A stretch of 64,000 nt of DNA, taken from the NCBI GenBank assembly GCA_000004985.1, contig GG738891.1, one strand, 5' to 3'. The translations under genes and the position numbers were made by a program. The notes beneath the pieces were generated by a model. The model ran no database searches. It saw only the letters and a list, made by a program, of their open reading frames with translations, and was not told where the DNA came from. Source of the stretch: Naegleria gruberi (taxonomy: Eukaryota). This document shows positions 22,138 to 51,300 of the stretch, piece by piece (positions within the stretch are counted from its first letter, which is position 1; every line of letters starts with the position of its first letter).

Positions 22138-22500
22138 GGACATGGTAATTATTTCGGTAAGTTTCTATTTCATTACTGACCTATTTCAATAACCAAAAAA
22201 GCCGACAAATTCAAGAAATCTCTCGGATATACCAGTTTCACAGGATCCTATTGGGCAGGAGGTTCTTCAGATAAGGCCTATCTTGCTGTATTTGATGTAC
22301 ATGTTGGCAAACAATTGGAAGTTACTAATTGGGATCACACACTTTCGGATTTCACAGAAGAATCCTTGACGAATTATAATGGACAAGATTATGATTCATT
22401 ATTTGCAAAAGCAAAGAATGGATTCTTGCTTAATAATGAATTTATAGTGTATAACTCAGCTCAATGCACAATCAAGTTTATGGTTGAAATTAAACAATAG
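22138..22500 (+). CDS. 3' fragment of a poly(ADP-ribose) polymerase (PARP) catalytic domain (last two exons), beginning at a gap
   Basis: …GHGNYF is split by a 45-nt intron 22157..22201 (GTAAGT…AAAAAAG) before ADKFKKSLGYTSFTGSYWAGGSSDKAYLAVFDVHVGKQLEVTNWDHTL…LLNNEFIVYNSAQCTIKFMVEIKQ*, matching the PARP catalytic C-terminus (…YFADMVSKSANYC…LLYNEYIVYD…KLKF). The same exons occur on the minus strand at 30389..30575 as part of the full PARP gene. Confidence 0.45.
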
Positions 22501-29041: not shown

Positions 29042-30064
29042 TTATTTGTCTCTAAAAGTCATGTATCCAACCACATACAACATTTGAGAATATCCAAATC
29101 CATCAGCAATTTCAGAACTAGTCAATGGTGTCAATACTGTCAAAATCCATTGTTCTTGGGGATGTAAAATATTTCTTCTCAACACTGCAATTACCTCATT
29201 GGAACCATCCAATTTTACAATTGGCATCTCATAGGAAATGAAATCAATCCTCTGCTGAACCATTGCTCTATTCGCTCCCTTTGCATCTCTCAAATAATAA
29301 GTCTTGACTCCAGAGTTAACTTGTAATTTTATAGAACCACCAAAAATTCCCTGATCTGCACTATTCAATCCAACAATGGAACTCACACTAGGAACACAAC
29401 TAGCTGAATTATCATAATGTCCAATCTGAATCGTATCAGATAGAGTAAAATAAGAACCCATTGCAAATGAAATTCCCTTTCCATCATTCCAAATAAAATC
29501 CATCATTGTGGGGACACTCCAAGTTCTCAATTGTAAACTTCCAATGCTTTGTTTTGTGTATTGAGAGAGTTTTCCAGATGATAGTAATGAAATAATTGAA
29601 TCACCACTCAAATCATTGTATTTTTCAATGACAAATTGACCTTGTGAAAACATGTCTCTTGTCATGACAAAACTGTCATTAGTAGAAAGAGTTTCAATAC
29701 TTGAAAGTGTAGTTAAATAATTAGAATTATAAACAAAACAATTTTTAGGTGCCTTGCTTGAAATTGCTCCTAAAACAATGACAACTGCCAATGTCACTGA
29801 TAATAAAGTTGACACCAAGAAGGATGCAAATGAATATCCGATCATTGTACAGTTATGCTTTTCATCTTCATCAGAAATAAATTTAATTATGTTATCTGGA
29901 CTGCTGTTAGAAGGTGGAGATGGATTACTGACTTGTCTCGTGTGATGTGTTGACGTTGGGTGATGGTGTGAGTGGTGCGAGTGATGATGGTGAGTTGGAC
30001 CTGAATTTCCTCTTGTTCTGGTGTGATTGGGAGGATGCAGTGGATTTACATGTAATTGTGGCAT
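29042..30064 (-). CDS. His-rich type II membrane protein of unknown function (full-length copy)
   Basis: A 340-aa ORF with ATG at 30064, preceded on the minus strand by CATTATTCGAAACTCAAAAAAAATG. The N-terminal cytoplasmic part is HHHHSHHSHHH-rich, followed by one TM (FASFLVSTLLSVTLAVVIVLGAI) and a ~240-aa extracellular domain with N-glycosylation sites. Confidence 0.5.
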   Translation of the reverse strand: MPQLHVNPLHPPNHTRTRGNSGPTHHHHSHHSHHHPTSTHHTRQVSNPSPPSNSSPDNIIKFISDEDEKHNCTMIGYSFASFLVSTLLSVTLAVVIVLGAISSKAPKNCFVYNSNYLTTLSSIETLSTNDSFVMTRDMFSQGQFVIEKYNDLSGDSIISLLSSGKLSQYTKQSIGSLQLRTWSVPTMMDFIWNDGKGISFAMGSYFTLSDTIQIGHYDNSASCVPSVSSIVGLNSADQGIFGGSIKLQVNSGVKTYYLRDAKGANRAMVQQRIDFISYEMPIVKLDGSNEVIAVLRRNILHPQEQWILTVLTPLTSSEIADGFGYSQMLYVVGYMTFRDK

Positions 30065-32530
30065 TTTTTTTGAGTTTCGAATAATGAGAATTTGCTTTCC
30101 ATTTTAGTGTGGTTACTAATTATGATTATTAATTGAATTGTACGACAATCTTTCCTTATTGTTGATTTATAGCAACTTTAATTTTCAATTGAAAAATATT
30201 TGTAAACTAATTCAAAAAAGTGTTAGAAAGTATCAATTTTAATCTTATATTCTCCTTCTTGACCCATAGTCCAAACAACTGTATAAGGAGCTTCAATTTC
30301 TCCACCAGAACTTTACCCAATTTATAAATTGTTGATTCGTCAATTCTTNNNNNNNNNNNNNNNNNNNNNNNNNNNNNNNNNNNNNNNNNNNNNNNNNNAT
30401 CCATTAGTACTTCCAATTGTTTGCCAACATGTACATCAAATACAGCAAGATAGGCCTTATCTGAAGAACCTCCTGCCCAATAGGATCCTGTGAAACTGGT
30501 ATATCCGAGAGATTTCTTGAATTTGTCGGCTTTTTTGGTTATTGAAATAGGTCAGTAATGAAATAGAAACTTACCGAAATAATTACCATGTCCAAACATT
30601 CTACCATTAGCAGCAGGTCTCAATTGAAGACCATTGATCATGATGGACAAAAAGTTTGCATTTTTAGAGCCATGCCAGAACAATTCTCTCTTTTGATTTC
30701 GTTTCCTTTGGACGAAATTGTCGAATAGTGTTTGAGTTTGATTATTGGTAACTCTGAAAGCTCTGTAAAACAAGTGACTATCTGAGCCCATCATCTTCTT
30801 GAGGAGTTTAATTTCATCTTGTGAAGCATCCTCCACAACAAGTCCATTCTTTTTAAGGAAATCAGGTTGATCAGATTGATCATGTTTTGTAATCTTGACT
30901 TGAGTAGCCATGACATCAAGAATTTCCTGCTGATCATCTAATAGTGAAGCAGCACTATCCTTATTACTCTTATCATTAATCAAATAATCCTGAACTTTCT
31001 TCATCTTTCTTGGAATGACAGCGTACAATTTCAGTAATTTTTCATTGAATGAATTCAGAAAATCCTCATCATTCTTGAAATTCTCATTCACCTTATACAA
31101 TTCATCCAAAATAGATTGAGCAGAGTCCAATTGTTCCTTTGTAACACTTCCAACTCCAACATTGTAATTGCTTACAATGGAAATATTCGAAAAATTATTC
31201 AACTCTGAAATTAAACTCTTCACATCTGGACTGGAATTCTCTAAATAAATATCATCCCCTGCATTGGTCATATCAGATCCCAAATTTGTCATATCTACAT
31301 AGCCTTTCTTCATCTTGGATCGAACTAAACTATCCCATTCACTCAAACTGGCTTTGATTGCAATTCCTGTGGCACCAACTCGACCATAGACAATATGAAT
31401 TTCACCATCCTTTTCAGTCATTTCATAATACTTGTTATTATTCTTGGAGGAGACCATAATTAATTTACAATATCTTCCGGCAGTGTTTGTGAAATTTTTC
31501 ACACTCGAGGAAAAGCTTCGGATTGGATGAATCGTGGAGGAAAAATTATTAACTCTCTTCATCATGCTCATGCTTCTGTTGAGCATTAGTGGTGAAATAA
31601 TCTCCCGATGGGAAGCAATAGATAAAGTACAGTTTAGTTTGCGCATTTTTTTGTGGTTGACTATTGTGAAATTGATCAAGATTTTGATTGGGATTGAAAT
31701 TGATTGAAAGATAACGAAAGAAATGATTTTTAATTATTAGTATTGTAAACTCTGTGAACACTGTTATGTAGAAGTTAAATCTCCCAGTTGATGATAGTAT
31801 TCCACCTCATGTTTTTATTGGCGAGAAATTAGATACATGCTAATTACATTTCTTTTTATTGTACTGAAATTTATTTTTTACTTTCTCATTATAATGAAAC
31901 AAAAGTATGAATCTGATGATGTAACAACATCGGAAAAGATGTAGAAAATGGATAGAACATTGAAGTATTAATAATTAAAGAATTAAAATGTATTTCACAT
32001 TTAAACAAGTTGATGATTTATTTCATATTGTATGTACTCATAATTTTATAAATGATTTATTGAATGAAGCAGGTTGTAGTGAGAAGCAAATGGAGGCATT
32101 TTTTTTTGCCTACTACACTGTAGATTGTCAAGGAAGAAACCACGTGTTCGATTCTTGTCCAAGGACTTTGATTATGCTTGAAAATTAAAAATAAACGTGA
32201 GCGTGGCCAAGTACCTAACAATCATCCATTACTAAAATTAAAAATAATTGTGAGTTGTAATGAAAATCTAAAATAAGAGAATGTGAGTATAAAAACTCAG
32301 TTGCACCTTGTATGAACACCCACAAAAATTAAAAAAGAAATACTGAAAATGTTGAATCAAGATATGAAATACCAACAAGCTGACACTCATGAAATTAATG
32401 ATGACGATGATTGTTTCCTTCGTTATGAAGATATCACCGATAATACTCACAAAGTTACATCCAATAACACTGCCTCAAGTCCCTCGATATTCTCACCACT
32501 CTCAACTATCCTCTCTCAAGAAGAAAGTTA
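30060..32530. repeat. Right arm of the inverted segmental duplication (partner 20530..22500), interrupted by a scaffold gap
   Basis: See the left arm. Gene order differs between the arms. Read on the minus strand, the right arm runs PARP, then the gap, then the small ORF, then the His-rich gene. The left arm runs the small ORF, the 5' of the His-rich gene, the gap, then the PARP 3' exons. Confidence 0.6.
30389..31679 (-). CDS. Poly(ADP-ribose) polymerase-like protein (WGR domain + PARP regulatory/catalytic domains), 3'-truncated by a scaffold gap
   Basis: Exon 1 is 30575..31679 and the 45-nt intron is 30530..30574. Exon 2 runs 30389..30529 into the N run at 30349-30388. The WGR motif is KYYEMTEKDGEIHIVYGRVGATG. 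The catalytic block is ELFWHGSKNANFLSIMINGLQLRPAANGRMFGHGNYF|ADKFKK…AYLAVFDVHVGKQLEV, with the H-G-S…Y…E-type PARP signature partly visible. The missing C-terminus corresponds to the fragment at 22202..22500. Confidence 0.55.
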
Positions 32531-33021
32531 CTGAGTTTCAAAACATTAACTCAACCTCTCAATCACAACCACATGAAATTATTCACCCATATGAAAATCA
32601 AGTTCAAAACGTCTCACATATTATACTTCAACAAACCGCTCAACAAATGCCAATGTCTTTCATTAACAAATCAAATTTCGAGAGTTGCAGTGATTTTAGA
32701 TTCATCAATAGATCTTCCGAAAAAATACTTGAAATTGGAATATACCAGTTTTCCTTTGTAAACCAAAATTTGATTCGTACTAGACGTTTACGTGTTACCA
32801 TTCCAGAATATAGAGAAACAGGAAATGCATATCGTGTAAAATATATTATCGACAAATACCAAGGACAAATTTATTTGGAAATTAAAGGAACTTTTGTTAA
32901 GCTAATTAGTAAAGGTAAACTTAATACAATTATCATCAATGAAAACAATATAAGTTTACAAAAAATCAATTACAACAATCAAAGCTCATTGGAATGTACT
33001 GATTATGAAGTCTATGAATGA
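32389..33021 (+). CDS. Hypothetical protein, paralog B of the diverged pair (paralog A is 19939..20652)
   Basis: A 210-aa ORF (MKLMMTMIVSFVMKISPIILTKLHPITLPQVPRYSHHSQLSS…). Relative to paralog A, a 1-nt indel upstream changes which ATG is usable. The C-terminal two-thirds have diverged strongly. Confidence 0.4.
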   Translation: MKLMMTMIVSFVMKISPIILTKLHPITLPQVPRYSHHSQLSSLKKKVTEFQNINSTSQSQPHEIIHPYENQVQNVSHIILQQTAQQMPMSFINKSNFESCSDFRFINRSSEKILEIGIYQFSFVNQNLIRTRRLRVTIPEYRETGNAYRVKYIIDKYQGQIYLEIKGTFVKLISKGKLNTIIINENNISLQKINYNNQSSLECTDYEVYE

Positions 33022-35064: not shown

Positions 35065-36501
35065 TTATTGTTTTCTATCAACTCTTGAAAATTCAATTAA
35101 TTTCTTAATAGAATCAACATGTTCGTTCATGGTTTCGTCTCCAATTTCTTTCACTTCATTGGTGAAAAGGTTCAATAATTGATTGAATTTTGAATTCCAT
35201 CGTTCATGTTTAGTTTCCCCATTCTTCATTTCCATCAAATAACCCTTCACATTTTCAACAAATCTAACCAAAGCAATGGCCTTTCGAATTCCATTAGTTT
35301 CGTAATAATTTCCAAGTTGATTTGCATTGATTTTAACCTGCTTCTCCTCTCTGACCTTCTTTCCTTCAACAGTCTCATAAGAAAGTGTTAATTTCACATT
35401 CGATTCTCCTTTAAAATCATTCTTTGCTTTCAATCTTAATAAAACTATTCCTCCCTTAACTCCTCTTTCATCTAATTGACTAGCAGAACAAGTATCAACT
35501 TTCATAATCTCGCCAGTTGATTCTCCTGCCATATTTGTTCCAAAACATTTTTCAATTTCATAATTTTCACATTCCAAACTCAACTTGACATTGTAACAAA
35601 TCGGTGTTACAATATAATTGAAATCCTGATTCAAAATCTTTGTAAAATCCTCAGTTGATTTAACAGAGAAATAATTACAACCACGAACTTGAGTCAATTC
35701 TTCAACAATATCCGAATTGAAATCTAAACCAATTCCAATAAAAGTTGAAAAGATATTATACGGACCAGAGTTTGCATCTTTTGTAAGAATATCGAGAGTG
35801 TCAGTTCCACCCACATTTGGACAAGCATCTGTCAAGTAAATAATTCTATTAGAATTGGATAAATCAGACGAATCTAGAGTGGAAAATAAATCAATTCCTC
35901 TTTGCATGCCAGCTTCAAAATTTGTAGATCCCTTCTCTTTAATCTTTAGAACAGTTTCCTTGAGCGATTTCTTATCTAAATCCTGAACAATTGTTAATGG
36001 AAGAAAAGTTTCGGCCTTGTCATCGAATAAAACAATTCCCAATCTTTCAAATTCTCTCAAATTGTCAATTATTTCACAAATTACTTGATTGGCAACTTGC
36101 ATTTTGGTTTTTTCCTTGTTAGACATGGCAGATCCCATTGATCCACTAATATCCAATACAATCTTTAGTTTACAATAATTATTAAATAATCATAACTAAA
36201 CAACACGTACAACTAAATTCAAATCCCTTCTTTCATTCAAACCATCTTTACAACTGTGCAATCCTAATGCCAAGTGAATTTGTCTTTCCGCACTGATCGG
36301 ATCATGATCAACAGCAATCGAATAGGCAGTTTCCAATAATTTATCAGAAACCTTCATCACACCAGTTTGATAAAAGTATTCTTTCATAATTCCCTCGAAT
36401 GTAATGGAAGAATTGGAGGGTAATCTCTTTCCACAATTCAAAACCTCTTTAAAAGATTCGGAATTAAAAGCTCCGGAAGAAAATAAAGCTGCTTTCATCA
36501 T
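35065..36501 (-). CDS. von Willebrand factor type A (vWA) domain protein; 2 exons
   Basis: Exon 1 is 36201..36501 (ATG at 36501, MMKAALFSS…DLNLV). The 38-nt intron 36163..36200 (GTACGT…AACTAAAG) leads into exon 2 at 35065..36162, which begins IVLDISGSMGSAM, a classic MIDAS DxSxS motif. The remaining vWA features include …GSTNFEAGMQRGIDLF…RIIYLTDACPNVGG…. Confidence 0.55.
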
Positions 36502-37309
36502 TTATTTTTTTGATTTCTGCAAGTTCAGTAAAATTGGATTTTACAATGGAAATTATCGGAAAACAATATATTATTCGAAACATTTCAGTTCTTAAGGCAA
36601 GTTTGATTTTTACAAGAATTTTGAAATAAGAAACAAGAAGAATTGAGGAAACTTTTTGTTACTGTAAATTACCCGCTCATTTTTATTGACGCTTGTTTTG
36701 ACGATTTTATAGTCATGAATGACGCCTTTGTTTATGCTTGTTAAGGTGTCATTGGGACGTTGTTGTGGACGTCAAAATGACGTTTTTTTTCGTCATTTTG
36801 ACGGTGTCAATTTGAGAGTCATTAAGACGTCAAAAAAAGCGTCCTCAATGACGTCTCAAAAAGTGTCTCCAATGACGTTGCAGAATGATTATTAATTTTT
36901 GATAAATTGAAATTTTATTGAACTATTCATAATTCTTACAAGTTGGAAATCCTTCATCTTGAACCATTTCACACTGAGTGAAACTCAATGCTGTGAAAGA
37001 TTCACACCGTGTGAATTAATATTGTAAAAGATTTCACACCATCAAAGATGACAAGGAAATTGACAAGAGTTTCTTATAAAAACGTGAAATAAAAATTTGA
37101 ATTGATATGTCTTGTAAATGAATTGAAATGATGTAATATAATTGATAACTGATACGACTTACTAGTATGTTGAGGTATTTTTTTTGAAAAATAGTTTAAA
37201 CTGGTTGCAAAAATAGAAAGTGTTTATTTTAGAGATGAAGCCAAATATGGAAAGACATTTAATATAATGTAAAGGCCATTTTGTGAATTGGTTTGAAGTG
37301 AAAAGAGCC

Positions 37310-38244
37310 NNNNNNNNNNNNNNNNNNNNNNNNNNNNNNNNNNNNNNNNNNNNNNNNNNNNNNNNNNNNNNNNNNNNNNNNNNNNNNNNNNNNNNNNNNN
37401 NNNNNNNNNNNNNNNNNNNNNNNNNNNNNNNNNNNNNNNNNNNNNNNNNNNNNNNNNNNNNNNNNNNNNNNNNNNNNNNNNNNNNNNNNNNNNNNNNNNN
37501 NNNNNNNNNNNNNNNNNNNNNNNNNNNNNNNNNNNNNNNNNNNNNNNNNNNNNNNNNNNNNNNNNNNNNNNNNNNNNNNNNNNNNNNNNNNNNNNNNNNN
37601 NNNNNNNNNNNNNNNNNNNNNNNNNNNNNNNNNNNNNNNNNNNNNNNNNNNNNNNNNNNNNNNNNNNNNNNNNNNNNNNNNNNNNNNNNNNNNNNNNNNN
37701 NNNNNNNNNNNNNNNNNNNNNNNNNNNNNNNNNNNNNNNNNNNNNNNNNNNNNNNNNNNNNNNNNNNNNNNNNNNNNNNNNNNNNNNNNNNNNNNNNNNN
37801 NNNNNNNNNNNNNNNNNNNNNNNNNNNNNNNNNNNNNNNNNNNNNNNNNNNNNNNNNNNNNNNNNNNNNNNNNNNNNNNNNNNNNNNNNNNNNNNNNNNN
37901 NNNNNNNNNNNNNNNNNNNNNNNNNNNNNNNNNNNNNNNNNNNNNNNNNNNNNNNNNNNNNNNNNNNNNNNNNNNNNNNNNNNNNNNNNNNNNNNNNNNN
38001 NNNNNNNNNNNNNNNNNNNNNNNNNNNNNNNNNNNNNNNNNNNNNNNNNNNNNNNNNNNNNNNNNNNNNNNNNNNNNNNNNNNNNNNNNNNNNNNNNNNN
38101 NNNNNNNNNNNNNNNNNNNNNNNNNNNNNNNNNNNNNNNNNNNNNNNNNNNNNNNNNNNNNNNNNNNNNNNNNNNNNNNNNNNNNNNNNNNNNNNNNNNN
38201 NNNNNNNNNNNNNNNNNNNNNNNNNNNNNNNNNNNNNNNNNNNN
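37310..38244. other. Scaffold gap (935 N). Other gaps are 22087-22137 (51 N), 30349-30388 (40 N) and 33977-34026 (50 N). Single ambiguous bases are at 28118 and 28186.
   Basis: Runs of n in the sequence. ORF-track entries made of X residues (37224-38401) are artefacts of this gap. Confidence 0.95.
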
Positions 38245-38256
38245 CCAACCAATAAG

Positions 38257-38922
38257 ATGTCAACTAGAAAAAACAAATCTAAGGCAGCTGCTCCAAAGAG
38301 GAAGAATCAATCTGATGAAGATGAATCAAGTACTGATACAGATAATGATTCTGAACCAAGCAAGAAAAAACAATTTAAACCATCTTCCAGTAAACAACTA
38401 GTGAAGACAGTGAAGAAGACCATGTCAGTTCATGATTCAGATAGTGATGAATCCACCACTGAAGATTCAGAAAATGGTACTGGTGACTCCACAGAATCTG
38501 TCTATTTTCAAGTTCGTCACGTTAATGGAAAACGGGAATATGTGATTGTTCCAGAGCATGTCGATTACATCTTTGATTTGATAGATAAGGACAAAGCTTT
38601 TCCAGAGTTCATCAATGCCATTATCCAATGTGAAAAGGTATTAACTGACCTCACAAAAAGGTTTGCTCATCTATTTTCAGGGCTTGCATTCAACACTACC
38701 GTAAATGGTATAACTTATTCAATTCCTCCAGACATTATCAAAATGCTTATTGGTAATGTGACTCAAAAACAGTGCTTGGAATTGTTAGCACATCATCACT
38801 TCAAGAAACCTATAGGAGAACTCACAACTGATCAAAGAACAGTATGTAGAAAGTTCTTTGAAGCAAGGGGATGGGATAAAGAAAGTGTTCGGAAGGCAAT
38901 CAATAGTTTGATCAAAGAATAA
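38257..38922 (+). CDS. Hypothetical protein encoded inside the putative TIR element (Ser/Asp/Lys-rich N-terminus, ~130-aa globular C-terminal domain)
   Basis: A 221-aa ORF starting 13 nt after the gap (MSTRKNKSKAAAPKRKNQSDEDESSTDTDNDSEP…VYFQVRHVNGKREYVIVPEHVDYIFDLIDKDKAFPEFINAIIQCEKVL…CRKFFEARGWDKESVRKAINSLIKE). No transposase (DDE/DDD) motifs are seen, and the true N-terminus may lie in the gap. Confidence 0.4.
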   Translation: MSTRKNKSKAAAPKRKNQSDEDESSTDTDNDSEPSKKKQFKPSSSKQLVKTVKKTMSVHDSDSDESTTEDSENGTGDSTESVYFQVRHVNGKREYVIVPEHVDYIFDLIDKDKAFPEFINAIIQCEKVLTDLTKRFAHLFSGLAFNTTVNGITYSIPPDIIKMLIGNVTQKQCLELLAHHHFKKPIGELTTDQRTVCRKFFEARGWDKESVRKAINSLIKE

Positions 38923-39339
38923 TTTCCAGACATGATGTTAAGCTTGATAGTCAAGCTTGTGAAATTTGTATTTTTTTTTTTAAAATTTTCAAAAAAATTC
39001 ACAAGTCTGAAATACGTCACCTCCTCCTTCACTGATTTTCATCATCAAAACAACACAAAACAAACAACAACAAATAAACAACACATTACAACATCAAGTA
39101 GAACACAACAGAATATCGATAATTAACTTTGGAGTAACTTTATGCAAAATCGTCAGCGATGACGTCAAAAAAAGCGTCAATCCACCATCAGGAATGACGA
39201 AATAAAATGAGCGGGTTAATTGGTGAAAAATTAAAGAGCAGAAAAAAATTTAAACGTTTATTAATCGTATGAACCCGACGGGTTCGTCTTGATGATATTA
39301 CGAATATTAAATAATAAATTCTTTCTTGTTGGGATTGCT

Positions 39340-39509: not shown

Positions 39510-39528
39510 GACGAAAGAGCAGAAAAAA

Positions 39529-40851
39529 ATGGGTAAATTCGAAACTCTGAAAACTGAAAGCATTCACTCACTGCAAAGCAAGGGACTATTTAGATTCGTC
39601 ATCATCGTGATGATGAGTTTAATTATGTTTTGTTCGAATATTGTTATCGGAAAACAATATATTATTCGAAACGTGCCATACTTTTCACAACAAACAGAAT
39701 ATTCGTGTGGAGCTACCAGTTTACAGATGGCACTTTCGTATTTTGATGGAAATTTTCATAGACAAATGAAAGAAGAGTCATTGTTAAAGGAAACAGTTTC
39801 GTTTCGAATAATTTCTCAAGAATCAATTGTAGATGTTGCTAGAACTTCCAATCATACAGGAACATGTTCATTAGACGTCATTAGAAGTGCCAGATTCTCC
39901 ACCATTAGTTCAACACCAATTTCTCAATATTATTTACAATATCCGAAACAAGCTCCGATGAACGGATGGTTTGGAATTGAGAATTCCCATAATTTATTGA
40001 ACAAATCTTTGGATTCAATTTACTATTTTGGAGGATTAATGACCATATACTATCCAGAAAGAGGTTCTTATTTGAAATCTGAAAAATGTTCTGAAAAGAA
40101 GGGAGGAGAAGGAAATGTCAAATGTTGGGTAAAAGAAATGATTGAATCCTTTTTGAAATTTGACATTCCTGTCATTTGTTTAATGTTTTATGATTTGAAT
40201 GATAGTGAAGGACATTACCGATTGGCAGTTGGTTACGAAACTAAACTAGACGAAAGTGGAAATGAAATTCCAACACATATTATTATGTGGGATCCTTACA
40301 ATCGAGAAGGAAATCCTCCAATTTCTAATTTTACAATTTCAGAATTTTGTAATTTGTGGAATTATACAGAATTGAGATTTGAGAATACTTGTTATAGACC
40401 TTATTTTGGAGCTGTCATGTATCCATTGGATATTAAGGCAATGGTTAGTAGAGAGGGACATTTGATGGTTGAGTATGGACATCCGAAACACTTGGTTTCG
40501 TCTGATTTTGTTTCGAAACATGTGGAAAAGACACTAGTGATAGACAATGTGGTGGCCAAGATTCGTATTTATCAAACGATTCCTAATCAAGAAGATATTT
40601 TGAAAGAAGTGGAAAGTGTTGATTTGCAAATGAATCCTTCCAGATTGAATTTTGGACAAAATCTTTCATTTTCTTGGAAATTACCATCAAATCTCTTATT
40701 GGAAAAGAATATTCGAATCAAAATTGGAATTTATGGATTAGTTTGTGATAAAACCTTAACTTGGCTCTATGAACCAAACACGGACAAGTTTAGTCAATCG
40801 TACAAATATTGCGATCAAGTTGGAGGAACAATTTTCATTAAAACAGATTAA
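39529..40851 (+). CDS. Secreted/membrane-anchored peptidase C39-like (papain-fold, BtrH/C39_2-type) domain protein
   Basis: A 440-aa ORF with an N-terminal signal-anchor (LFRFVIIVMMSLIMFCSNIVIG). The motif VPYFSQQTEYSCGATSLQMALSYFDG matches the C39-like Q…CG..S signature, and a downstream GHYRLAVGYE supplies the His of the Cys-His dyad. The C-terminal ~150 aa are of unknown function. Confidence 0.5.
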   Translation: MGKFETLKTESIHSLQSKGLFRFVIIVMMSLIMFCSNIVIGKQYIIRNVPYFSQQTEYSCGATSLQMALSYFDGNFHRQMKEESLLKETVSFRIISQESIVDVARTSNHTGTCSLDVIRSARFSTISSTPISQYYLQYPKQAPMNGWFGIENSHNLLNKSLDSIYYFGGLMTIYYPERGSYLKSEKCSEKKGGEGNVKCWVKEMIESFLKFDIPVICLMFYDLNDSEGHYRLAVGYETKLDESGNEIPTHIIMWDPYNREGNPPISNFTISEFCNLWNYTELRFENTCYRPYFGAVMYPLDIKAMVSREGHLMVEYGHPKHLVSSDFVSKHVEKTLVIDNVVAKIRIYQTIPNQEDILKEVESVDLQMNPSRLNFGQNLSFSWKLPSNLLLEKNIRIKIGIYGLVCDKTLTWLYEPNTDKFSQSYKYCDQVGGTIFIKTD

Positions 40852-42271: not shown

Positions 42272-43870
42272 ATGTCAAAAGAATGTGCAGTGGCTGATCG
42301 CGAATATTATGAAGAATCTCAACCACCAACAGTGCTAAATAATCAAAATAATGCAAAGAAACTAGACGAAAGCTTTCCACCAGTTGAATATCACGAAAAT
42401 TCATTAAATTCTTTAACACCCGATTACATTTACCTTGACGAGAACAATATCGAAAAGGATTTAATCTGTTCTCTCTGCTACCATCCCTTCATTGATCCAA
42501 TTATGCACTCAACATGTGAAAATATGTTCTGCTCCTCTTGTGTTAAAAAAGTTATTGGAAACAAGTGTCCCCTATGTAAAGGAGAGAATTTCACATCAAA
42601 TTGCTCATCTGTTCCTCGATTCGTCACCAACAAGTTGCTACAATTGAAAGTGGAATGTTCCATGTGTAAGGGAGCAGTTGCAAGAGGTGATTTGAAAGAT
42701 CATCAGGAAAAATATTGTCCTCTTCATGATGCCTATCAACAGGTGACTAAATTGAAGGAGAAACTGGAAGAGGAATGCAAGGAGAAGAAGGATGAGTTGG
42801 GAAGAAAGTTGGAAGAATTATCTGAAAGTTTAAATCTCGAATGGAGTCAAAAGAAGGATGAGTTGACCAGAGAATTTGAATCGAAAGAGGAGGAACTGCA
42901 TGAACGAATTGAATTATTTGAGAATCAAATATTGGCAAGGGAAAAACTTGAGAATGTGAACAAACCTATTCATTTAAATGTTGGTGGGACTATTCTTACA
43001 GTTTCTTTGGGAACATTTATTCATAATGAAAGAGAATCAGATAATTTATTTAAAAAAATGTTCACAGGTGAATATCCATGCTATCAAACACCTTCAAAAC
43101 AGTTTGAAGAGCCTGTGTATTATGTTGATTGTGATCCAATGATTTTCAGATACATCTTAGGATGGTTACAATATGGAAAGAACTCAATTGGGCCAAGTTT
43201 GAGTTTATCTGACATTCTTCTAGCTTGTAAGAAGTTTAGTTTAGATAATCTAGCTGTTAAATTAACCAAATCTGAATACTTTTATGAGATTTCTCAACTA
43301 GAATTCTTCAAAATGAAGAATAGCTCTCCATCCATAATTTTAAACAAATTTGACATGACTAATTTAATGTTAAGAGGTATGGATCTACAAAAATCCTCAA
43401 TTTCACTTTCACTTTTCAGGGGAATGGATTTGAGTGGAGTGAATTTTTCCAATTCTAATTTGAATGGATGTAACTTTAGTGGTTGTATCTTGGATGGAAC
43501 TAATTTTTCAAAATCCAACTTGTCAAATGCAAACATTCAAATAAGTTCATCTTGTAATTTCACTAACTGTGATTTTTCTGGTTGCTTGATTGACAAGTCA
43601 AATTTGAACAATCTTTCATTTTCAGGATCCAGTTTTAAAGAAACCAAGTTTGTGGAATTGTGTAATTTGATTGAGAATGTGACACTGAGCAAGTGCACAA
43701 TTTACAAAGTTTACTTAAATGGAAAGACGTTTAATAGAGTTGACTTTAGTGAAACATCTTTTAAAGATTGCAAGTTTGCAGATTGTACCTTCAAGAACTG
43801 TAACTTTTCAGAGACTCAATGGAAGACAAGCAAAGTAGAGCGATGTAATTTTCTGGAATGCATTCAGTAA
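42272..43870 (+). CDS. RING finger, TRAF-type zinc finger, coiled-coil, BTB/T1 (KCTD-like) and pentapeptide-repeat protein
   Basis: A 532-aa ORF. The C3HC4 RING is CSLCYHPFIDPIMHSTCENMFCSSCVKKVIGNKCPLC and the TRAF-zf-like block is …VECSMCKGAVARGDLKDHQEKYC. A coiled-coil (KLKEKLEEECKEKKDELGRKLEEL…) follows. The BTB/T1 domain is IHLNVGGTILTVSLGTFIHN…YYVDCDPMIFRYILGWLQYG. There are more than 25 pentapeptide repeats (…NFSNSNLNGCNFSGCILDGTNFSKSNLSNANIQ…DFSETSFKDCKFADCTFKNCNFSE…). The arrangement is like KCTD9 (BTB + pentapeptide) with an added N-terminal RING. Confidence 0.6.
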   Translation: MSKECAVADREYYEESQPPTVLNNQNNAKKLDESFPPVEYHENSLNSLTPDYIYLDENNIEKDLICSLCYHPFIDPIMHSTCENMFCSSCVKKVIGNKCPLCKGENFTSNCSSVPRFVTNKLLQLKVECSMCKGAVARGDLKDHQEKYCPLHDAYQQVTKLKEKLEEECKEKKDELGRKLEELSESLNLEWSQKKDELTREFESKEEELHERIELFENQILAREKLENVNKPIHLNVGGTILTVSLGTFIHNERESDNLFKKMFTGEYPCYQTPSKQFEEPVYYVDCDPMIFRYILGWLQYGKNSIGPSLSLSDILLACKKFSLDNLAVKLTKSEYFYEISQLEFFKMKNSSPSIILNKFDMTNLMLRGMDLQKSSISLSLFRGMDLSGVNFSNSNLNGCNFSGCILDGTNFSKSNLSNANIQISSSCNFTNCDFSGCLIDKSNLNNLSFSGSSFKETKFVELCNLIENVTLSKCTIYKVYLNGKTFNRVDFSETSFKDCKFADCTFKNCNFSETQWKTSKVERCNFLECIQ

Positions 43871-44824: not shown

Positions 44825-45295
44825 GACCCTTTATACTCAGGTAAACAATTACTTTCAAATACGAGTAAAGACAATTCTTTTGAATGGACTGTAAAAAAAT
44901 TTTTTACAGAAACCTCTTATAACGTTCAAGAGTAAAGTAAACTTGAAAAAATTAATTTTATTGAAAATGGTTGGTTTTGTCATCATGATCGGAATCAGTT
45001 GTTGCACAAAACATCTCTCAAACTTATTCATAATCATCAATGCCATTCTGCTGAAGCAGATGATGAAATATTGTAACACGATAATATAGCCTATCACAAA
45101 TTATTGTGATTGTTCTTTTCATGATGAAGAAACCTTTAGAGATGGACTAGCTTTGACATTTTTTTTGTTGTTGTTTTCAAGTTTACTTTACTTTACTCTG
45201 AACGTTATAAGAGGACTCTTGAAAATAAAATTTTTTTTAATTACTGTTCAATTCAAGCCCACCACTATAAAGGGTCTATTGTAATACTCAGTCCA
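44825..45295. repeat. Imperfect foldback/inverted repeat (~120-bp arms around a ~200-bp core) immediately downstream of the giant gene's stop codon
   Basis: 44827-44950 (CCCTTTATACTCAG…GAAACCTCTTATAACGTTCAAGAGTAAAGTAAACTTG) is the inverse complement of 45170-45295 (CAAGTTTACTTTACTTTACTCTGAACGTTATAAGAGGACTC…ACTATAAAGGGTC…TACTCAG). The terminal ~38 bp are near-perfect and the middle has diverged. Confidence 0.35.
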
Positions 45296-45325: not shown

Positions 45326-48300
45326 TTATTCAAATACCAATCTCAAATCAATTTGCACTGCAGATGGAATTTCTTCTTCCTTCTTCTTCTTTCTGAATAA
45401 TTTTCTAACAGATTCCGATGAAAAATTGGACAAGACCGATATGAAGGAATGTCTAGAATTTGTTGTTGAGTTTCCATCATCATCATCACCTCCTCCTCTG
45501 CCTACGCCTTTGCCTCCTCTCACAACAGTCACTGCTCCTTCTGAATTATGATCATCACCATCATCATTATCATGACTAATTGTGATGTTGTTGCTATGAT
45601 TTGAATGTGTATCCTCCTCTCCCCTTGTTGAAGGAGTTTCTCTTGGAGTTGGTGGAAGATAAATTGTTTCTCCCTCCACAATAGGATGATCTTCATTATA
45701 TATTATTGTTGTTGTACTCGTATTATTAATAGTATTATTTAAATTAATGATAGGAACAACAGGATGAGGATGAGGATTAAAAGGCTCGATATGAAGATGA
45801 GGTTTTTCATCATCACCATTATCACTTTCTACATCGACATCAATTGCTGTTGTCATTGAAAGTGCTCTTCTTCTTCTATTCCGATGATGACGAAGAATGC
45901 TCGATTTACCACAACAATAACAACACCACCAACAGCAACAACAAAACTGCAGGCAAGGAATGGCTAGACAACATAATTCTCCATAGAAACAATAGTAGGC
46001 ATAGCAACCAATTGTTACAGAGCAACACAAAACCATAGCACCAACCACCACAGCAATGATAATGCCTATTAACATACTCTGATCATCTATATAAATCTTC
46101 TTTTGGACAATGAAGAGATTGAGTGTGGAGGAGACAAGATTGGTCATGTTGAAAGTGACAGAACATTTGCAGGTTGCCATTGTTGAATTGATAATTGTAA
46201 CTATGCAATTTGGATTATCTTCGATGGATAGTGTACTGATTGAGATTGAGGCACATGAATATGATGTATTGACCTCTTTGAAGAACAATTGACCCAAATT
46301 ACTGTCATCTTGAGTAGTAGTAGTATTCTCTAGCAGTGGAATATGGAATTCCAAGTCAATTATGGAAGATGATTTCAATAAGGCAACATCCAAATCACCA
46401 AAACCAAAAGCAATAATTTTAGATTGGAGAGAGGACTTTCTTCTAACTTTCTCAGAGAGAGTTTCTACTTTTGAGGCTAAATAATCACCAATGGAGAATA
46501 TATCATCCACCACAAGGAATGCTTGAAGGAATGGTTTGCTGGAATGTGTGGCCTTAATAGTATTATTTAACTGTACTTTGACACTTGTCAATGTTGAAGG
46601 TTCTATCAACAGCTGATGATTCGAATAGTCGTATAACCACACCAGTTCCATCACTCTTCTATAGAATGCTGCCTTCTTAAAGACTTTTGTTCTTGTCTTT
46701 GGTTGACTTCTGGCTTCTAGATGGGAGGTAAACTTGAGAGTTGTAAATAATTGTTGTGCATTTGAAGCTTGTTTGGTAAAGAATCGTTTCTCAAGGATGA
46801 ATTGGAAGGCAGAATCAATGACAGAGTCCAAACAAAAGTCAACACCCACTGGAAGTTTCAAGCTTTCATCAGCAATCACCTTAACAAGATATTTGACAAG
46901 TTGGGATAGAGCTTCTGATACTGTATTTGTATCAAGATGTTTGAAGTTATACAGAATCGAGTCTACAGTAAATGCAGCTATGGAAATGAGTTGATTATCC
47001 ATCATTATTTCTGTACCATTTGCTAACATTCTCAATAGTTGTAGATTCTTGTTTTGATATTCTGCAAAATCCTTGATGGTATTTTCACAAGCAACCCCAA
47101 CAAAACCTTCCCTACACATACAGGTATCCTTTTTCAAAATTCCACCATTCTTACATGTGAGACTTCTTGTCAATGACCTAGTATTTTCATATATTGAAAT
47201 TGGTTCAATTTTTGTGATGGCTCTATTCAGAAGGGCAGTAGAAGTTCTAGATATGGCTGCTGATTGATAGAGTGATCCCAATAGCGACTCTTCTTTTGCC
47301 TGTTTAATCCATTGTTGAGCTAAAACTTGTACTTGTGAAAAGGTTGAATATGAGCGAGTTTGAATGCTTACATTCATTGATTCTATAGTTGATGCTTGTG
47401 TGGCTGTATTGATTACCTCAAAGAAACATGTAACTGTCTCACCAATGAATGCTGTAGGAAGTTGTTTCGAATAGCCAACATCAATATTATGCATGTAAAT
47501 TTTTACACCAGACCTATCATCAATGAAACCATATCTGTAATCTAAATGATCTTCTTCACTTTTACAATTCATGCAAATGAATTCAAATTCTGTTTCTACT
47601 GCAAAACCATTCAAAGGAGTAATGGTACAATAACACATTGGAGGAGGGGAGGCAACACTGAAACTGTACTGAATCAATGAAGCAACATTTGCATTTGGAT
47701 CATAAGCTGACAGAGTAATAATATTATTGGAGCCAGCATTTAACAAACTTGGATCAATATTAATGTAATCTGAACTTGTGGAACCAACAATAACATTATT
47801 AACAATTACCGTATAATTGGTAATTAAAGATGTTCCAGGAATGAGAGAGGTCTGTAATGTTAGAGTATCACTAACAAGAAAGTATTCCTTCTTTGGGTAA
47901 ACATTAATAATGTTAATTATTGGTGGAATATACGTAAAATGGATAGTAGTCGATTTATGAATACTTCTTCCATCAGATTTAGTAACTTTAAGATCTAGTT
48001 CTAGTGATAGTGGAGGAACGGGGAAAAGAGCTGCATCAATTTTGAAGTTCGTTGACTTTTCTGAGGATAGTACTGAGAGAAACTCTAATAAGAGCTCATT
48101 GACGTTATTGTCCAAGCATGTCCATTCCCACACTTCTGTAGAGTATGCGTTGTAAACCATTTCAGGATCTGTATAATCTACATTAATTATGGTATAATTG
48201 GGTTGTGCATCAAAAGTAATTAAGTTCAAGTATAGATCTGGAGGTTTGGTGATTAAGGTTACAACTGAAACATCTTTGATGTTAGGATTGGATGGATAGT

Positions 48301-51300
48301 AGACAGATACTTGGAATTTATAGATCTGGTAACCAAATGTTTCTAAAGAGACGTAGAGGTCAGAGTATTTATCCATACTGTATCTGATTTTTGGTCCACT
48401 CAATTGAGTCCATTCAATGATTGAATTTTCTGATTTGCATGAAGATTCTGACACTATTTTCTTGATGGTAATAGGAAATTGAGTAGTTACTTTTTCAATA
48501 GTTGTTTGTGGAACATATAATGCTGGAAGAGGGCTTTCTGCTTTTGAAAATATGGAAGAATATACAGTTGAGCTATTTACAATATTTCCCACCACAAGAG
48601 AAACTAAATATTTTCCTTGTGGAAGGGTTGAATCTAGCTTAATTAATGGAGTATTGGGGAAATTGAATGGAATAATTTGGAACACATGGTCTGTCTCATT
48701 GAACAAGGTCCAGTAATAGTCAAGTGGTGTATTATTTGGAGATATACTGAGCGAGCCATCAATGATAATCTCATCACAGGAGCTATAGAATTCTGAGAGT
48801 AGATTTATGGATGCTGTTGGAGCGATAACTTTTTCATTTTCACACCAAATGCCATAATATCCATTCTCACATTGGCATTGATTGTAATCTATGCATACAC
48901 CTCTTCCAGAACAAACATTAGAATCATTCGAAAGTAGAGAATCACATCGTGTCAACTCACAATTCACACCAACATGATTACTGGTGCATGTACAATTATC
49001 AAAGCTTGAACAATTACCACGATTTGAACACACCAAAGGATTGGTATTATTCAGACCGAAACAAGAGTATTGTTCACAACTTTCACCGAAATAGCCGTCA
49101 GAGCATTGGCAAGTATCCAAATCAATGCAATTACCCTTTCCAGAGCAAACAGTTTCTTTTTCACTTGATGAAATGTTGAAACATGTGGTCAACTCACAAT
49201 TAGCTCCATGATACTTTTCTCCACATGTACAATTATTGTAGGATGAGCAAAATCCTCTACCAGAACAAACCTTTGAATCGGCATGCTCTGTTCCATTACA
49301 ATCAAAATAATTACATAGATCTCCATAAGTTCCTAATTGACAAGAGCACTTATTCACATCAATACATTGGCCATTTCCAGAACACACTGTCGAGTTGTCT
49401 TTTTCAATACCAAAGCATGAAAATTCTTTACATTCCACACCAGTATATCCTGAACGACATTTACAATCATCAAAATCAACACATTCACCTCTTCCTGAAC
49501 AAACATTTTGAGTTTCATTGCTCAAAACACCAAAACAACTTGTCACTGAACAATCTAATCCGAAATAATGTGATACACATTCGCACTCATCTGTTTCAGT
49601 ACAACTTCCGTGCCCAGAGCAAACTCTGGAATCAGTTCTATTCATTCCATAACAAGAATAATATTGGCAGTTGTCTCCGTAATATCCTTCAGAACAATTG
49701 CATTGATTGAATCGATAGCAATTTCCTTTTCCAGAGCAAACTTGAGGATTTGATGAAGATACATTGAAACACACATAAGATTCACATTCTTCTCCATGAT
49801 ATCCATGCTCACATGAGCAATTATTAGGAGAAACGCATTGACCATGACCTGAACAAGCCAATGGTTCTGAATGTTGCACATTAAAACATGAGAAATTGTC
49901 ACATTCCTTTCCATAGTAACCAGATACACATGTGCAATTATCAAAATCAACACATTCACCTCTTCCAGAACAAACACTTGAAGAATTGGAAAGTTTGGAG
50001 AAGCAAGTAGTGATGGAACAGTTCAAATCCATATAGTTCTCATCACATTGGCATTGATCCAAGCTGGAACAAGTTCCTCTTCCAGAACAAACATTGGAAT
50101 CTGAAGAATTGAATCCAAAACATGTGTAAAGTTCACAAAATTCACCAAAATATCCATATTCACATTGGCAATTATTAAATGTTTCACATGAACCATGCTT
50201 GGAACAAACTGAGCTATTGGAAGATGAAATTCCATCACAAGTAGTTTCTTGACAGAATGAACCAAAGTAATGTTCTACACATTCGCATGTGTCATGTTGC
50301 TTGCATTCACCACGTCCATTACAAACTCTTGAATCATTACTTAATAATCCCTCACAGGATGTCACTTGACATTTATCACCCCACCAATTGTTTGAGCAGT
50401 GACATGTATCGGGTCCAACACATATTCCATTTCCAGAACATGATATGTTTAAAGTTTTCGATTCATTAAAACATGAAAATTCGTCACAATTTGATCCAAA
50501 ATAATCAATTTCACATTGACATAAATTAAAATCAATGCATTGACCATGTGAGGAACAAACTAGATTGGTTTGATTCGATGGGATGGAAGCACAGGTGGTG
50601 AGTTGACATTCTTCTCCGAAATAGTTTGGTAGACAAAAGCATTCGTCAAGTTTCGAACAATTTCCTCTTCCAGAACAAACACTTTTGGTTTCAGTATGAT
50701 TAATTCCAAAGCAAGCATAATTTTCACAATCCATGCCTGAATAACCATTCTCACATTCGCAAATTTCAGATTTTAAGCATTTTCCGTGTTTGGAACAAAC
50801 TGAACTATTTAAATGCTCAATTCCATTACAATAAAATTCTTCACAATTTGATCCAAAATAACCAGTATTACAAGTGCAATTGTTAAAATCATTACAGTTA
50901 CCATTTTTGGTACAAACAGTCGAGTCATTTGACATTATTCCAAAACAAGAGGTTACGTCACATGCCAATCCAAAGTAATTTTCTTGACATTCACAATTTC
51001 CAAAATCTGAACAATTTCCTCTTCCTGAACAAACTAACACATCATTTTGAGTAATATTGTTACATGTGTAATATTGACATTCATCACCAAAATATCCAAA
51101 TTTACAAGAACAAGTATTGTAATCAATACATTTTCCTTTTCCAGAACAAGCTCGTGAACTGGAAGATATTTCAGCACCACAACTTGTCAATTGACAATAA
51201 TCTCCAAAATAGTGAGCTTGACATTTACAATTATTGTAAGAAGTACAATTTCCTTTTTGGGAACAAACAACAGAAGAATTGGTATTGTTAATGCCATTAC

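What the first reader, a model, noticed from the sequence alone, without database searches (positions are those of the whole stretch)
36668..39219. Putative TIR DNA transposon with TGACG(TCA)-rich subterminal repeats carrying a non-transposase ORF
The ~19-bp ends are inverse complements (TTACCCGCTCATTTTTATT … AATAAAATGAGCGGGTTAA). Inside both ends are clustered GACG/TGACGTCA motifs (at least 10 on the left, at least 4 on the right), the kind of subterminal arrays that transposases bind. The same motif is the CRE/bZIP palindrome, so these could alternatively be a regulatory cluster. The interior, as assembled, contains a 935-N gap and a single 221-aa ORF of unknown function. This is either a non-autonomous element that captured a host gene, or an autonomous element whose transposase lies in the gap.
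Basis: seen in the sequence. Interest (0 to 1): 0.55.

Follow-up and report, generated by a model that had tools for sequence, protein, structure and literature searches.

The report
Two-gene DNA transposon in Naegleria
The flagged stretch is a real but fairly ordinary cut-and-paste DNA transposon in the amoeba Naegleria gruberi; its "221-aa ORF" is the visible tail of a 476-aa gene that travels with the element and is cut off by the assembly gap.

Summary
The window is Naegleria gruberi nuclear DNA. A 12-bp perfect terminal inverted repeat (CCCGCTCATTTT) sits at 36672 and 39215. Inside it lies a 19-bp internal inverted repeat, 1 nt from the left repeat and 22 nt from the right. TTA flanks both tips. 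GACG cores are enriched only at the two ends: 15 on the left (P~1e-19) and 5 on the right (P~1e-6).

The inverted 12-mer alone is not beyond chance. The decisive evidence is comparative. A related copy on a Logan contig (L001) matches up to ...GAGCGGG and then continues into an unrelated trypsin-like gene.

The 221-aa ORF is the C-terminal part of a 476-aa protein. A second N. gruberi copy, NAEGRDRAFT_82336, is 219/221 identical. Its missing 765 nt nearly fill the 935-N gap, so no transposase fits there unless the gap is undersized.

In L001 this gene lies 55 bp from a divergent gene. That gene's DG..PF region adds about 22 bits to an anchored Pfam Transposase_21 (CACTA/EnSpm) match; 17 controls added at most 4.

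Best reading: a low-copy CMC/EnSpm-like two-gene transposon with atypical CCC..GGG termini, probably present here as a transposase-less derivative. Superfamily assignment, the target-site duplication and the accessory protein's function remain unproven.

The parts
36669..36671 (.). Candidate 3-bp target-site duplication, left copy (TTA)
   Evidence: The sequence reads TTA|CCCGCTC on the left and GAGCGGG|TTA on the right. A 3-nt match has about a 2% chance at this base composition. Only one complete insertion is available, so this is unconfirmed.
36672..36683 (+). Left terminal inverted repeat, CCCGCTCATTTT
   Evidence: It is the exact reverse complement of 39204-39215.
36685..36703 (+). Left 19-bp internal inverted repeat, ATTGACGCTTGTTTTGACG, 1 nt inside the terminal repeat
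   Evidence: It is 95% complementary to 39163-39181 (pair I6). It holds two GACG cores 12 nt apart.
36685..36880 (.). Left subterminal array: 15 GACG cores (10 TGACG) in both orientations; consensus wwTGACG(T/C); commonest spacing 12 nt
   Evidence: 0.35 cores are expected by chance (P~1e-19). Cores lie 16, 28, 49 ... 202 nt from the tip.
36881..37309 (.). AT-rich internal non-coding stretch left of the gap
   Evidence: It holds no ORF of 40 aa or more and shows no similarity to L001. It may be the remnant left by a deletion of the transposase gene, or a 3' UTR. This is inference.
37310..38244 (.). Assembly gap (935 N)
   Evidence: Located. It should contain about 765 nt encoding residues 1-251 of the accessory protein, by comparison with P0004. 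That leaves about 170-180 nt unaccounted for.
38245..38922 (+). Visible 3' part of the accessory gene (ORF2; 476 aa in the second N. gruberi copy). The annotated 221-aa model starts at the internal ATG 38257.
   Evidence: It is 100% identical to NAEGRDRAFT_58999 and 219/221 identical to residues 256-476 of NAEGRDRAFT_82336. It is 60% identical to P0002 of L001 over the 216 aligned residues, with dN/dS of about 0.5. There is no Pfam or PDB match.
38999..39215 (.). Conserved 3' terminal non-coding region
   Evidence: It is 88% identical to L001, against 80% for coding sequence and 77% at third codon positions. Similarity ends at the terminal GGG.
39151..39199 (.). Right subterminal array: 5 GACG cores, including one full TGACGTCA palindrome at 39160-39167
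   Evidence: Cores lie 16, 37, 49, 51 and 61 nt from the tip. Four of the five are conserved at the same distances in L001.
39163..39181 (-). Right 19-bp internal inverted repeat, 22 nt inside the terminal repeat
   Evidence: (pair I6).
39204..39215 (-). Right terminal inverted repeat (AAAATGAGCGGG on the + strand)
   Evidence: The tip is confirmed by the break in similarity with L001 at L001 position 2813.
39216..39218 (.). Candidate target-site duplication, right copy (TTA; the flank reads TTAA)

Best explanation
The region 36672-39215 is one copy of a low-copy cut-and-paste (class II) DNA transposon of Naegleria.

**Structure**
- Each end has a 12-bp terminal inverted repeat and a 19-bp internal inverted repeat, set at unequal distances (1 nt on the left, 22 nt on the right).
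- Each end also has an array of TGACG motifs, mostly 12 nt apart and anchored at fixed distances from the tip.
- Full-length relatives carry two divergently transcribed genes. One is a transposase of the CACTA/EnSpm (Pfam Transposase_21, 'Tnp2', CMC clade) type. The other is an element-specific protein of 476-489 aa.
- That protein has a helical N-terminal part, an acidic serine-rich linker with basic patches, and a conserved C-terminal domain of about 140 aa.

**The window copy**
- It keeps both ends and the accessory gene.
- If the 935-N gap is sized correctly, it has lost the transposase gene. It would then need the enzyme supplied in trans.

**Proposed mechanism (inferred by analogy)**
- The models are En/Spm TnpA/TnpD and the Harbinger Myb-like protein.
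- The accessory protein and/or the N-terminal part of the transposase would bind the TGACG arrays and pair the two ends.
- The transposase would cut at CCC/GGG and insert the element with a 3-bp duplication, here TTA.

**Shown:** the ends, the arrays, the boundary, the different genomic context of a related copy, the linkage of the two genes, and the partial Transposase_21 signal.
**Inferred:** which protein binds the TGACG motifs, the length of the target-site duplication, and the loss of the transposase in this copy.

**Confidence by claim:** about 0.85 that it is a cut-and-paste transposon with terminal inverted repeats; about 0.55 that it belongs to the CMC/EnSpm clade; about 0.55-0.6 that this copy lacks the transposase gene. 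The single figure given (0.55) is for the statement as a whole, including the superfamily.
For: - **Organism.** The ORF is 100% identical to a Naegleria gruberi protein.
- **Ends.** An exact 12-bp inverted repeat plus a collinear 19-bp block.
- **Motif arrays.** GACG enrichment occurs only at the two ends. The commonest spacing is 12 nt. Cores lie 16 and 49 nt from the tip at the window's left end, its right end and the L001 right end.
- **Boundary and mobility.** L001 matches up to GAGCGGG and then runs into a trypsin-like ORF. In the window the neighbours are a vWA gene and a C39-like peptidase gene.
- **Constraint on the terminus.** The terminal non-coding 216 nt are better conserved (88%) than synonymous positions.
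- **Second N. gruberi copy.** A full 476-aa gene lies on another scaffold, 219/221 identical over the shared part.
- **Element-specific gene.** Apart from one spurious hit to a bacterial repeat protein, no other homologue was found among 1.84 billion representative proteins, searched with the C-terminal 147 residues. The word-indexed searches also found none.
- **Candidate transposase.** In L001 a divergent gene starts 55 bp from the accessory gene. It has an acidic N-terminus and a Cys/His cluster.
- **Anchored Pfam test.** Fused to a Transposase_21 anchor, L001 residues ~251-320 raise the score from 110.7 to 132-133 bits, aligned in register to profile positions 33-105. Twelve shuffles and five natural control segments gave 109.2-114.9 bits and never extended past profile position 95.
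- **Literature.** RepeatModeler classifies 38 repeats of N. lovaniensis as CMC-EnSpm (PMC6125883, Table 3). The CMC clade makes 2-5-bp duplications (PMC12730594).
Against: - Only one complete insertion is available, so the 3-bp duplication rests on a single TTA/TTA match (about 2% by chance).
- The termini are CCC..GGG. Most CMC-clade elements have CA..TG (PMC12730594).
- Plain hmmscan did not list Transposase_21 for the L001 fragment, even at E<=10. BLASTP against a CACTA segment gave only E=0.059.
- Only the region around the first catalytic Asp is present on the truncated contig. A full DDE triad has not been seen.
Pfam validated it at 245 bits, but it is not a database entry.
- The left end of the L001 copy is unknown, so it is not proven that the transposase-like gene lies inside the element.
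- The second N. gruberi copy could be an alternative haplotype of this same locus rather than a second insertion.
- The rest of the N. gruberi genome could not be searched with these tools.
Confidence: 0.55

Rival explanations
1. It is a piggyBac-like element. The termini are 5'-CCC..GGG-3' and insertion is at TTAA. The asymmetric layout of terminal plus internal repeats resembles piggyBac itself (13-bp terminal repeat, 3- or 31-bp spacer, 19-bp internal repeat; recalled from established knowledge). A piggyBac-type DDD transposase acting in trans would mobilise it.
For: - The termini are CCC..GGG and the right flank is TTAA.
- The layout is a 12-bp terminal repeat, a 1-nt or 22-nt spacer, and a 19-bp internal repeat.
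- PiggyBac repeats are reported in N. lovaniensis (PMC6125883, Table 3).
Against: - The left flank is ATTA, not TTAA. The right flank in L001 is AACT. So two of the three observable flanks fail a rule that piggyBac follows very strictly.
- The gene linked to the element in L001 shows no DDE_Tnp_1_7 match at E<=10.
- It shows no similarity to the solved piggyBac transposase in the PDB.
- Its DG..PF region fits Transposase_21 instead.
Confidence: 0.12
2. It is a PIF/Harbinger-type element. Such elements carry two genes, a DDE transposase and a Myb/SANT-like DNA-binding protein, and make a 3-bp TWA duplication.
For: - TTA flanks both tips in the window.
- Related copies have a two-gene organisation.
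- UniRef names the 476-aa protein 'SPK domain-containing'. SPK domains have Myb-like folds (PMC12886896).
Against: - The L001 gene has no DDE_Tnp_4 or Plant_tran match.
- Pfam's SPK and Myb models do not match the accessory protein, even at E<=10.
- The right flank in L001 is AAC, not TWA.
- The anchored test favours Transposase_21.
Confidence: 0.08
3. It is not mobile. On this reading it is an ordinary host gene whose promoter and terminator regions carry clusters of CRE-like TGACG(TCA) sites for host bZIP factors, and the inverted repeat is coincidental.
For: - TGACGTCA is the CRE palindrome.
- Inverted 12-mers are common in this window.
- Only two gene copies are known in N. gruberi, and they could be alleles.
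Against: - A second 19-bp collinear inverted block is present.
- Core distances from both tips are identical.
- The arrays sit at both ends rather than only upstream.
- Similarity with L001 ends exactly at the tip, and all flanking genes differ.
- The gene is linked to a Transposase_21-like gene.
Confidence: 0.05
4. The window copy is a full autonomous element, and the gap is simply undersized because a repeat collapsed in the Sanger assembly. The transposase gene would then lie in the gap, reading towards the left end. (This rival concerns only the state of this copy; it is compatible with any of the superfamily readings.)
For: - In L001 the transposase-like gene starts 55 bp upstream of the accessory gene and reads away from it.
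- Two minus-strand frames are open at the left gap edge and stop at 37224 and 37259.
- Gaps often fall in repeats.
Against: - The other gaps in the window are 50-51 N placeholders, whereas this one has a specific size, which suggests an estimate from read pairs. This is inference.
- The 430 nt left of the gap show no coding signal and no similarity to L001.
Confidence: 0.35

Closest known systems
En/Spm (CACTA) elements and the wider CMC/CMCT clade (Pfam Transposase_21 / Tnp2 transposases)
   Same: - Short terminal inverted repeats of 12-13 bp.
- Arrays of a short motif in both orientations within about 200 bp of each end.
- A candidate 3-bp target-site duplication.
- Two element-encoded proteins, a transposase and an accessory protein.
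- Derivatives with internal deletions.
- The region around the first catalytic Asp of the linked gene fits the Transposase_21 profile.
   Different: - The termini are CCC..GGG, not CACTA or CA..TG.
- The repeated motif is the CRE-like TGACG rather than the 12-bp TnpA site.
- The accessory protein has no detectable similarity to TnpA or to anything else.
- The two genes are separate and divergent, not alternative splice products.
- The full catalytic domain has not been seen.
piggyBac
   Same: - CCC..GGG termini.
- Asymmetric spacing between the terminal and 19-bp internal repeats.
- TTAA at one flank.
   Different: - Two of three flanks are not TTAA.
- The linked gene is not piggyBac-like.
PIF/Harbinger (transposase plus Myb-like DNA-binding protein)
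   Same: - Two-gene logic, with an accessory protein presumed to bind the subterminal sites.
- TTA flanks in the window.
   Different: - No Harbinger DDE signature.
- No Myb/SANT match.
- The L001 flank is not TWA.
CRE / bZIP binding-site clusters (TGACGTCA)
   Same: The core motif is the same, and one full palindrome (39160-39167) is conserved in L001.
   Different: The sites are arranged as inverted arrays anchored to the transposon tips, not as a promoter module. No bZIP protein is encoded by the element.

Membership tests
Class II TIR (cut-and-paste) DNA transposon | Terminal inverted repeats at both ends | tested here: met
   There is a 12-bp exact repeat plus a 19-bp (18/19) internal block.
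Class II TIR (cut-and-paste) DNA transposon | Target-site duplication flanking the element | tested here: inconclusive
   TTA/TTA is seen at one insertion only, with about a 2% chance of matching by accident. The left end of L001 is not available.
Class II TIR (cut-and-paste) DNA transposon | Copies bounded by the same termini at unrelated genomic sites | tested here: met
   L001 shares the terminus and then runs into a trypsin-like gene, whereas the window has vWA and C39-like neighbours. A second N. gruberi copy exists on another scaffold, but its flanks could not be read.
Class II TIR (cut-and-paste) DNA transposon | An element-encoded or related transposase | tested here: inconclusive
   None is visible in the window. 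In L001 a linked gene gives +22 bits to Transposase_21 in an anchored test, but plain hmmscan is negative.
CMC / EnSpm (CACTA) superfamily | Tnp2-type (Transposase_21) DDE transposase | tested here: inconclusive
   Only profile positions 33-105 could be tested, because the contig is truncated. The true segment scored 132-133 bits against 109-115 bits in 17 controls. BLASTP gave E=0.059.
CMC / EnSpm (CACTA) superfamily | Termini 5'-CACTA..TAGTG-3' (or at least CA..TG) | tested here: not met
   The termini are CCCGCTC..GAGCGGG. PMC12730594 says CA..TG holds 'in most cases', not in all.
CMC / EnSpm (CACTA) superfamily | Target-site duplication of 2-5 bp (3 bp for EnSpm) | tested here: inconclusive
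   A single TTA/TTA instance.
CMC / EnSpm (CACTA) superfamily | Subterminal repeat arrays in both orientations | tested here: met
   15 GACG cores on the left and 5 on the right.
piggyBac superfamily | TTAA target-site duplication | tested here: not met
   The right flank is TTAA, but the left flank is ATTA and the L001 right flank is AACT.
piggyBac superfamily | DDE_Tnp_1_7 (DDD) transposase | tested here: not met
   The L001 gene gives no Pfam match at E<=10 and no PDB match. A transposase acting in trans cannot be excluded.
piggyBac superfamily | CCC..GGG termini | tested here: met
PIF/Harbinger superfamily | DDE_Tnp_4 transposase and a Myb/SANT accessory protein | tested here: not met
   No such Pfam matches were found. 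The UniRef name 'SPK domain-containing' was not reproduced with Pfam.
Kolobok superfamily | TTAA duplication with 5'-RR..YY-3' termini (PMC9587614) | tested here: not met
   The termini are YY..RR (CCC..GGG), and the flanks are not consistently TTAA.

The most novel reading that the evidence does not exclude
This would be an undescribed lineage of the CMC clade with CCC..GGG termini. Its orphan 476-aa protein would be a new kind of sequence-specific DNA-binding factor that reads TGACG sites spaced 12 nt apart. Alternatively, the element would recruit host bZIP/CREB-type factors to its ends, so that each insertion drops a portable cluster of CRE sites between host genes in this compact genome.
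Probability: 0.2. Interest if true: 0.5.

Novelty: new member of a known kind. Interest (0 to 1): 0.3.

Why it matters
- **Annotation.** It corrects a gene model: NAEGRDRAFT_58999 is a gap-truncated copy of a 476-aa transposon gene. It also shows that the gap hides gene sequence rather than a transposase.
- **Transposon family.** It documents a two-gene DNA transposon family in Heterolobosea, a group whose mobile elements are barely described. The termini and binding-site motif are unusual for the superfamily it most resembles.
- **Accessory protein.** If the orphan protein binds the TGACG arrays, it would add a new DNA-binding module to the known set of transposon accessory factors.
- **Beyond this.** The finding is ordinary transposon biology.

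Tried and rejected
**Other copies within the window**
- There are none. The 12-mer with up to 2 mismatches and blastn of both arms gave only the element itself.

**Access to the rest of the N. gruberi genome**
- The genome is not in the contig look-up. P0001, P0004 and the neighbouring 440-aa protein are all 'not on record'.

**Scans of other collections**
- Metagenome, bacterial/archaeal genome and viral contig scans found nothing. Queries were the accessory-protein alignment (metagenome and viral contigs), the transposase fragment (all three collections) and a degenerate terminus pattern (genome and viral contigs).

**Protein homology searches**
- The word-indexed search with the transposase fragment found nothing. 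This tool also missed P0002 when queried with P0001, so its negatives are weak evidence.
- The exact-sequence cluster look-up of the transposase fragment found that the sequence is not in the collection.

**Structure**
- AlphaFold models of the accessory protein were too poor to use, at pLDDT 52 and 36. Foldseek against the PDB gave nothing below E=0.2.

**Domain searches on the accessory protein**
- Pfam searches on the whole proteins and on sub-domains found nothing. This includes SPK, Myb and AbrB-like ideas.
- An internal repeat in its C-terminal domain, suspected by eye, was not supported by BLASTP.

**First impression of the window**
- I first took it to be bacterial, because it has dense ORFs and 33% GC. 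One search rejected that.

**The 264-bp segment next to the element**
- It is bracketed by 17-nt direct repeats. It has no Rfam match and no folding signal.
Full report
**Source and context**

The 221-aa ORF at 38257-38922 is 100% identical to NAEGRDRAFT_58999 of Naegleria gruberi, on a contig of 339,217 bp. The window is therefore nuclear DNA of a gene-dense, intron-poor, AT-rich eukaryote (33% GC), not a bacterium.

The element lies between two divergent host genes:
- To the left is a vWA-domain gene on the minus strand, with ORFs at 35065-36156 and 36196-36501.
- To the right is a C39-like peptidase gene on the plus strand, at 39529-40851.

**Checking the observation**

- **Terminal repeat.** CCCGCTCATTTT is exact at 36672-36683 and, reverse-complemented, at 39204-39215.
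- **Internal repeat.** Inside each terminal repeat lies a second inverted block, ATTGACGCTTnTTTTGACG (18/19). It is 1 nt from the left terminal repeat and 22 nt from the right one.
- **TGACG counts.** TGACG occurs 10 times in 36687-36877 and 5 times in 39151-39199.
- **GACG cores.** Counted on either strand, there are 15 on the left (0.35 expected, P~1e-19) and 5 on the right (0.18 expected, P~1e-6). No stretch of the window away from the element's two ends has more than 3 per 230 nt.
- **Motif and spacing.** The consensus is wwTGACG(T/C), and the commonest spacing is 12 nt. Cores lie 16 and 49 nt from the tip at both window ends.
- **Caveat.** An inverted exact 12-mer within 5 kb is common here: 80 cases in the window and about 61 in simulations. 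The terminal repeat alone would not be convincing.

**The ORF is truncated by the gap**

An exhaustive HMMER search of 1.84 billion representative proteins, using the ORF's C-terminal 147 residues, found two real homologues: the ORF's own cluster and P0002 (489 aa). A third hit, a bacterial repeat protein, is spurious.

The ORF's 90% cluster also holds P0004. This is NAEGRDRAFT_82336, 476 aa, on a 12,976-bp N. gruberi scaffold. Its residues 256-476 are 219/221 identical to the window ORF.

The window's reading frame is open back to the gap edge and reads PTNK|MSTRK, as in P0004. The annotated 221-aa protein is therefore the tail of a 476-aa protein. The missing 765 nt would occupy most of the 935-N gap (37310-38244), leaving about 170-180 nt.

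**Comparative evidence for an element boundary**

P0002 lies on a 2,967-bp Logan contig, L001, from run SRR28981358. L001 aligns with the window through the coding region and the 3' non-coding region up to ...GAGCGGG. Similarity then stops abruptly: the window continues TTAATTGG and L001 continues AACTGTCA.

- The terminal 216 nt are 88% identical, against 80% for the coding region and 77% at third codon positions. dS is 0.38 and dN/dS is 0.51. The terminus is therefore under its own constraint.
- Four of the five right-end GACG cores keep the same distances from the tip in L001.
- Beyond the tip, L001 runs into a trypsin-like ORF (Pfam Trypsin, E=0.005 on a 51-aa fragment). This is unrelated to the window's neighbours.

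A unit bounded by the same terminus thus sits in different genomic contexts in two genomes. This is the strongest evidence here for mobility.

**A candidate transposase**

In L001 a second gene starts 55 bp from the accessory gene and reads the other way. The contig end cuts it after 337 aa.

Features of this gene:
- an acidic N-terminus;
- a Cys/His cluster (YCRECKDFQHDAQHTHCSC);
- a stretch, LNGDGVSPF...FLWAILP...IDIEIGL, that I recognised from memory as resembling the region around the first catalytic Asp of CACTA/EnSpm transposases.

Direct tests were weak:
- hmmscan listed only DUF7082, below its cutoff.
- BLASTP against a CACTA segment aligned the expected motif at E=0.059.
- There was no PDB match.

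I then ran an anchored test. I kept its C-terminal 107 residues as an anchor, which alone scores 110.7 bits. I then placed different segments in front of it.

| Segment in front of the anchor | Score (bits) | Alignment to the profile |
|---|---|---|
| None (anchor alone) | 110.7 | positions 106-210 |
| L001 segment | 132-133 | positions 33-210, in register |
| 12 shuffles of that segment and 5 natural segments from other window proteins | 109.2-114.9 | never past position 95 |

The L001 gene therefore carries about 20 bits of specific signal for the N-terminal part of the Tnp2/CACTA transposase domain. The rest of the domain lies off the contig.

Independent reports agree with this assignment:
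- RepeatModeler classes 38 N. lovaniensis repeats as CMC-EnSpm (PMC6125883, Table 3).
- The CMC clade makes 2-5-bp duplications (PMC12730594).

**State of the window copy**

- The 430 nt between the left array and the gap (36881-37309) have no ORF of 40 aa or more and no similarity to L001.
- With 765 nt of the gap taken by the accessory gene, there is no room for a gene of more than 1 kb.
- So either the copy is a deletion derivative that kept the accessory gene and both ends, or the gap is undersized.
- The other gaps in the window are 50-51-N placeholders, while this one has a specific length. That mildly favours a real estimate. I put the deletion reading at roughly 55-60%.

**Which superfamily?**

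- **CMC/EnSpm** fits the subterminal arrays, the two-gene design, the single TTA/TTA flank pair and the Transposase_21 signal. It does not fit the CCC..GGG termini.
- **piggyBac** fits the CCC..GGG termini, the TTAA at the right flank and the asymmetric layout of terminal and internal repeats. However, the left flank is ATTA, the L001 flank is AACT, and the linked gene is not piggyBac-like.
- **PIF/Harbinger** fits TTA and the two genes. No Harbinger DDE or Myb match was found, and the L001 flank is not TWA.
- **Kolobok**, which has been reported in Naegleria (PMC9587614), needs RR..YY termini and TTAA. Neither is met.

**The accessory protein**

- It is an orphan with no Pfam or PDB match.
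- UniRef calls P0004 'SPK domain-containing', and SPK domains have Myb-like folds (PMC12886896). Pfam's SPK model did not match here, so I treat this only as a hint.
- The AlphaFold models were too poor to use.
- By analogy with En/Spm TnpA and the Harbinger Myb-like protein, I infer that it binds the TGACG arrays. This is untested.

**Limits of this analysis**

- The rest of the N. gruberi genome could not be reached.
- All collection scans were empty.
- Copy number, the target-site duplication and the full transposase therefore remain to be established.

**Verdict**

My confidence that it is a cut-and-paste transposon with terminal inverted repeats is about 0.85.
- My confidence that it belongs to the CMC/EnSpm clade is about 0.55.
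- The ORF is a truncated element gene rather than a captured host gene, and the gap hides that gene's 5' part.
- This is a new member of a known kind, with some unusual features in its termini and repeated motif. Interest is modest.

Noticed in passing
window 36553-36581 and 39644-39672: A 29-nt perfect direct repeat (TTATCGGAAAACAATATATTATTCGAAAC) brackets the element. One copy lies 91 nt left of the left tip. The other lies inside the 5' coding part of the C39-like peptidase gene. The sequences around the two copies are not alike. It could be filler DNA or a micro-duplication linked to insertion or repair. It remains unexplained.
   Followed up: partly
window 39233-39249 and 39514-39530 (segment 39250-39513): A 17-nt direct repeat (AAAGAGCAGAAAAAAAT) flanks a 264-bp GC-richer segment immediately upstream of the ATG at 39529. 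It looks like an insertion with a long target-site duplication. It has no Rfam match and no folding signal.
   Followed up: partly
window 20406-22329 versus 29781-32668: This is a large inverted duplication. 29781-30348 is the reverse complement of 21519-22086 at 100% over 568 bp. A 50-N run follows in both copies. Then 30403-30593 matches 22138-22329 at 99.5%, and 31797-32668 matches 20406-21280 at 79%. It is either a real inverted segmental duplication or an assembly artefact.
   Followed up: no
window 44893-44949 / 45174-45237: A 64-nt inverted repeat (81%) with about 225 nt between the arms lies in the intergenic region upstream of the giant ORF. It could be a MITE-like element or a hairpin.
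   Followed up: no
window 45326-63991 (minus strand): A single 6,221-aa ORF is full of diverged internal repeats of roughly 0.1-0.6 kb.
   Followed up: no
window 30552-31679, 42272-43870: The neighbouring genes include a PARP/WGR protein and a RING + BTB + pentapeptide-repeat protein. This domain combination is unusual.
   Followed up: no
L001 2814-2966: In the related genome the element's right tip abuts an open trypsin-like reading frame (NCQGNKF...HPAYSAKTLDNDI) near the position of the catalytic-His motif. The insertion may therefore have interrupted a protease gene.
   Followed up: partly
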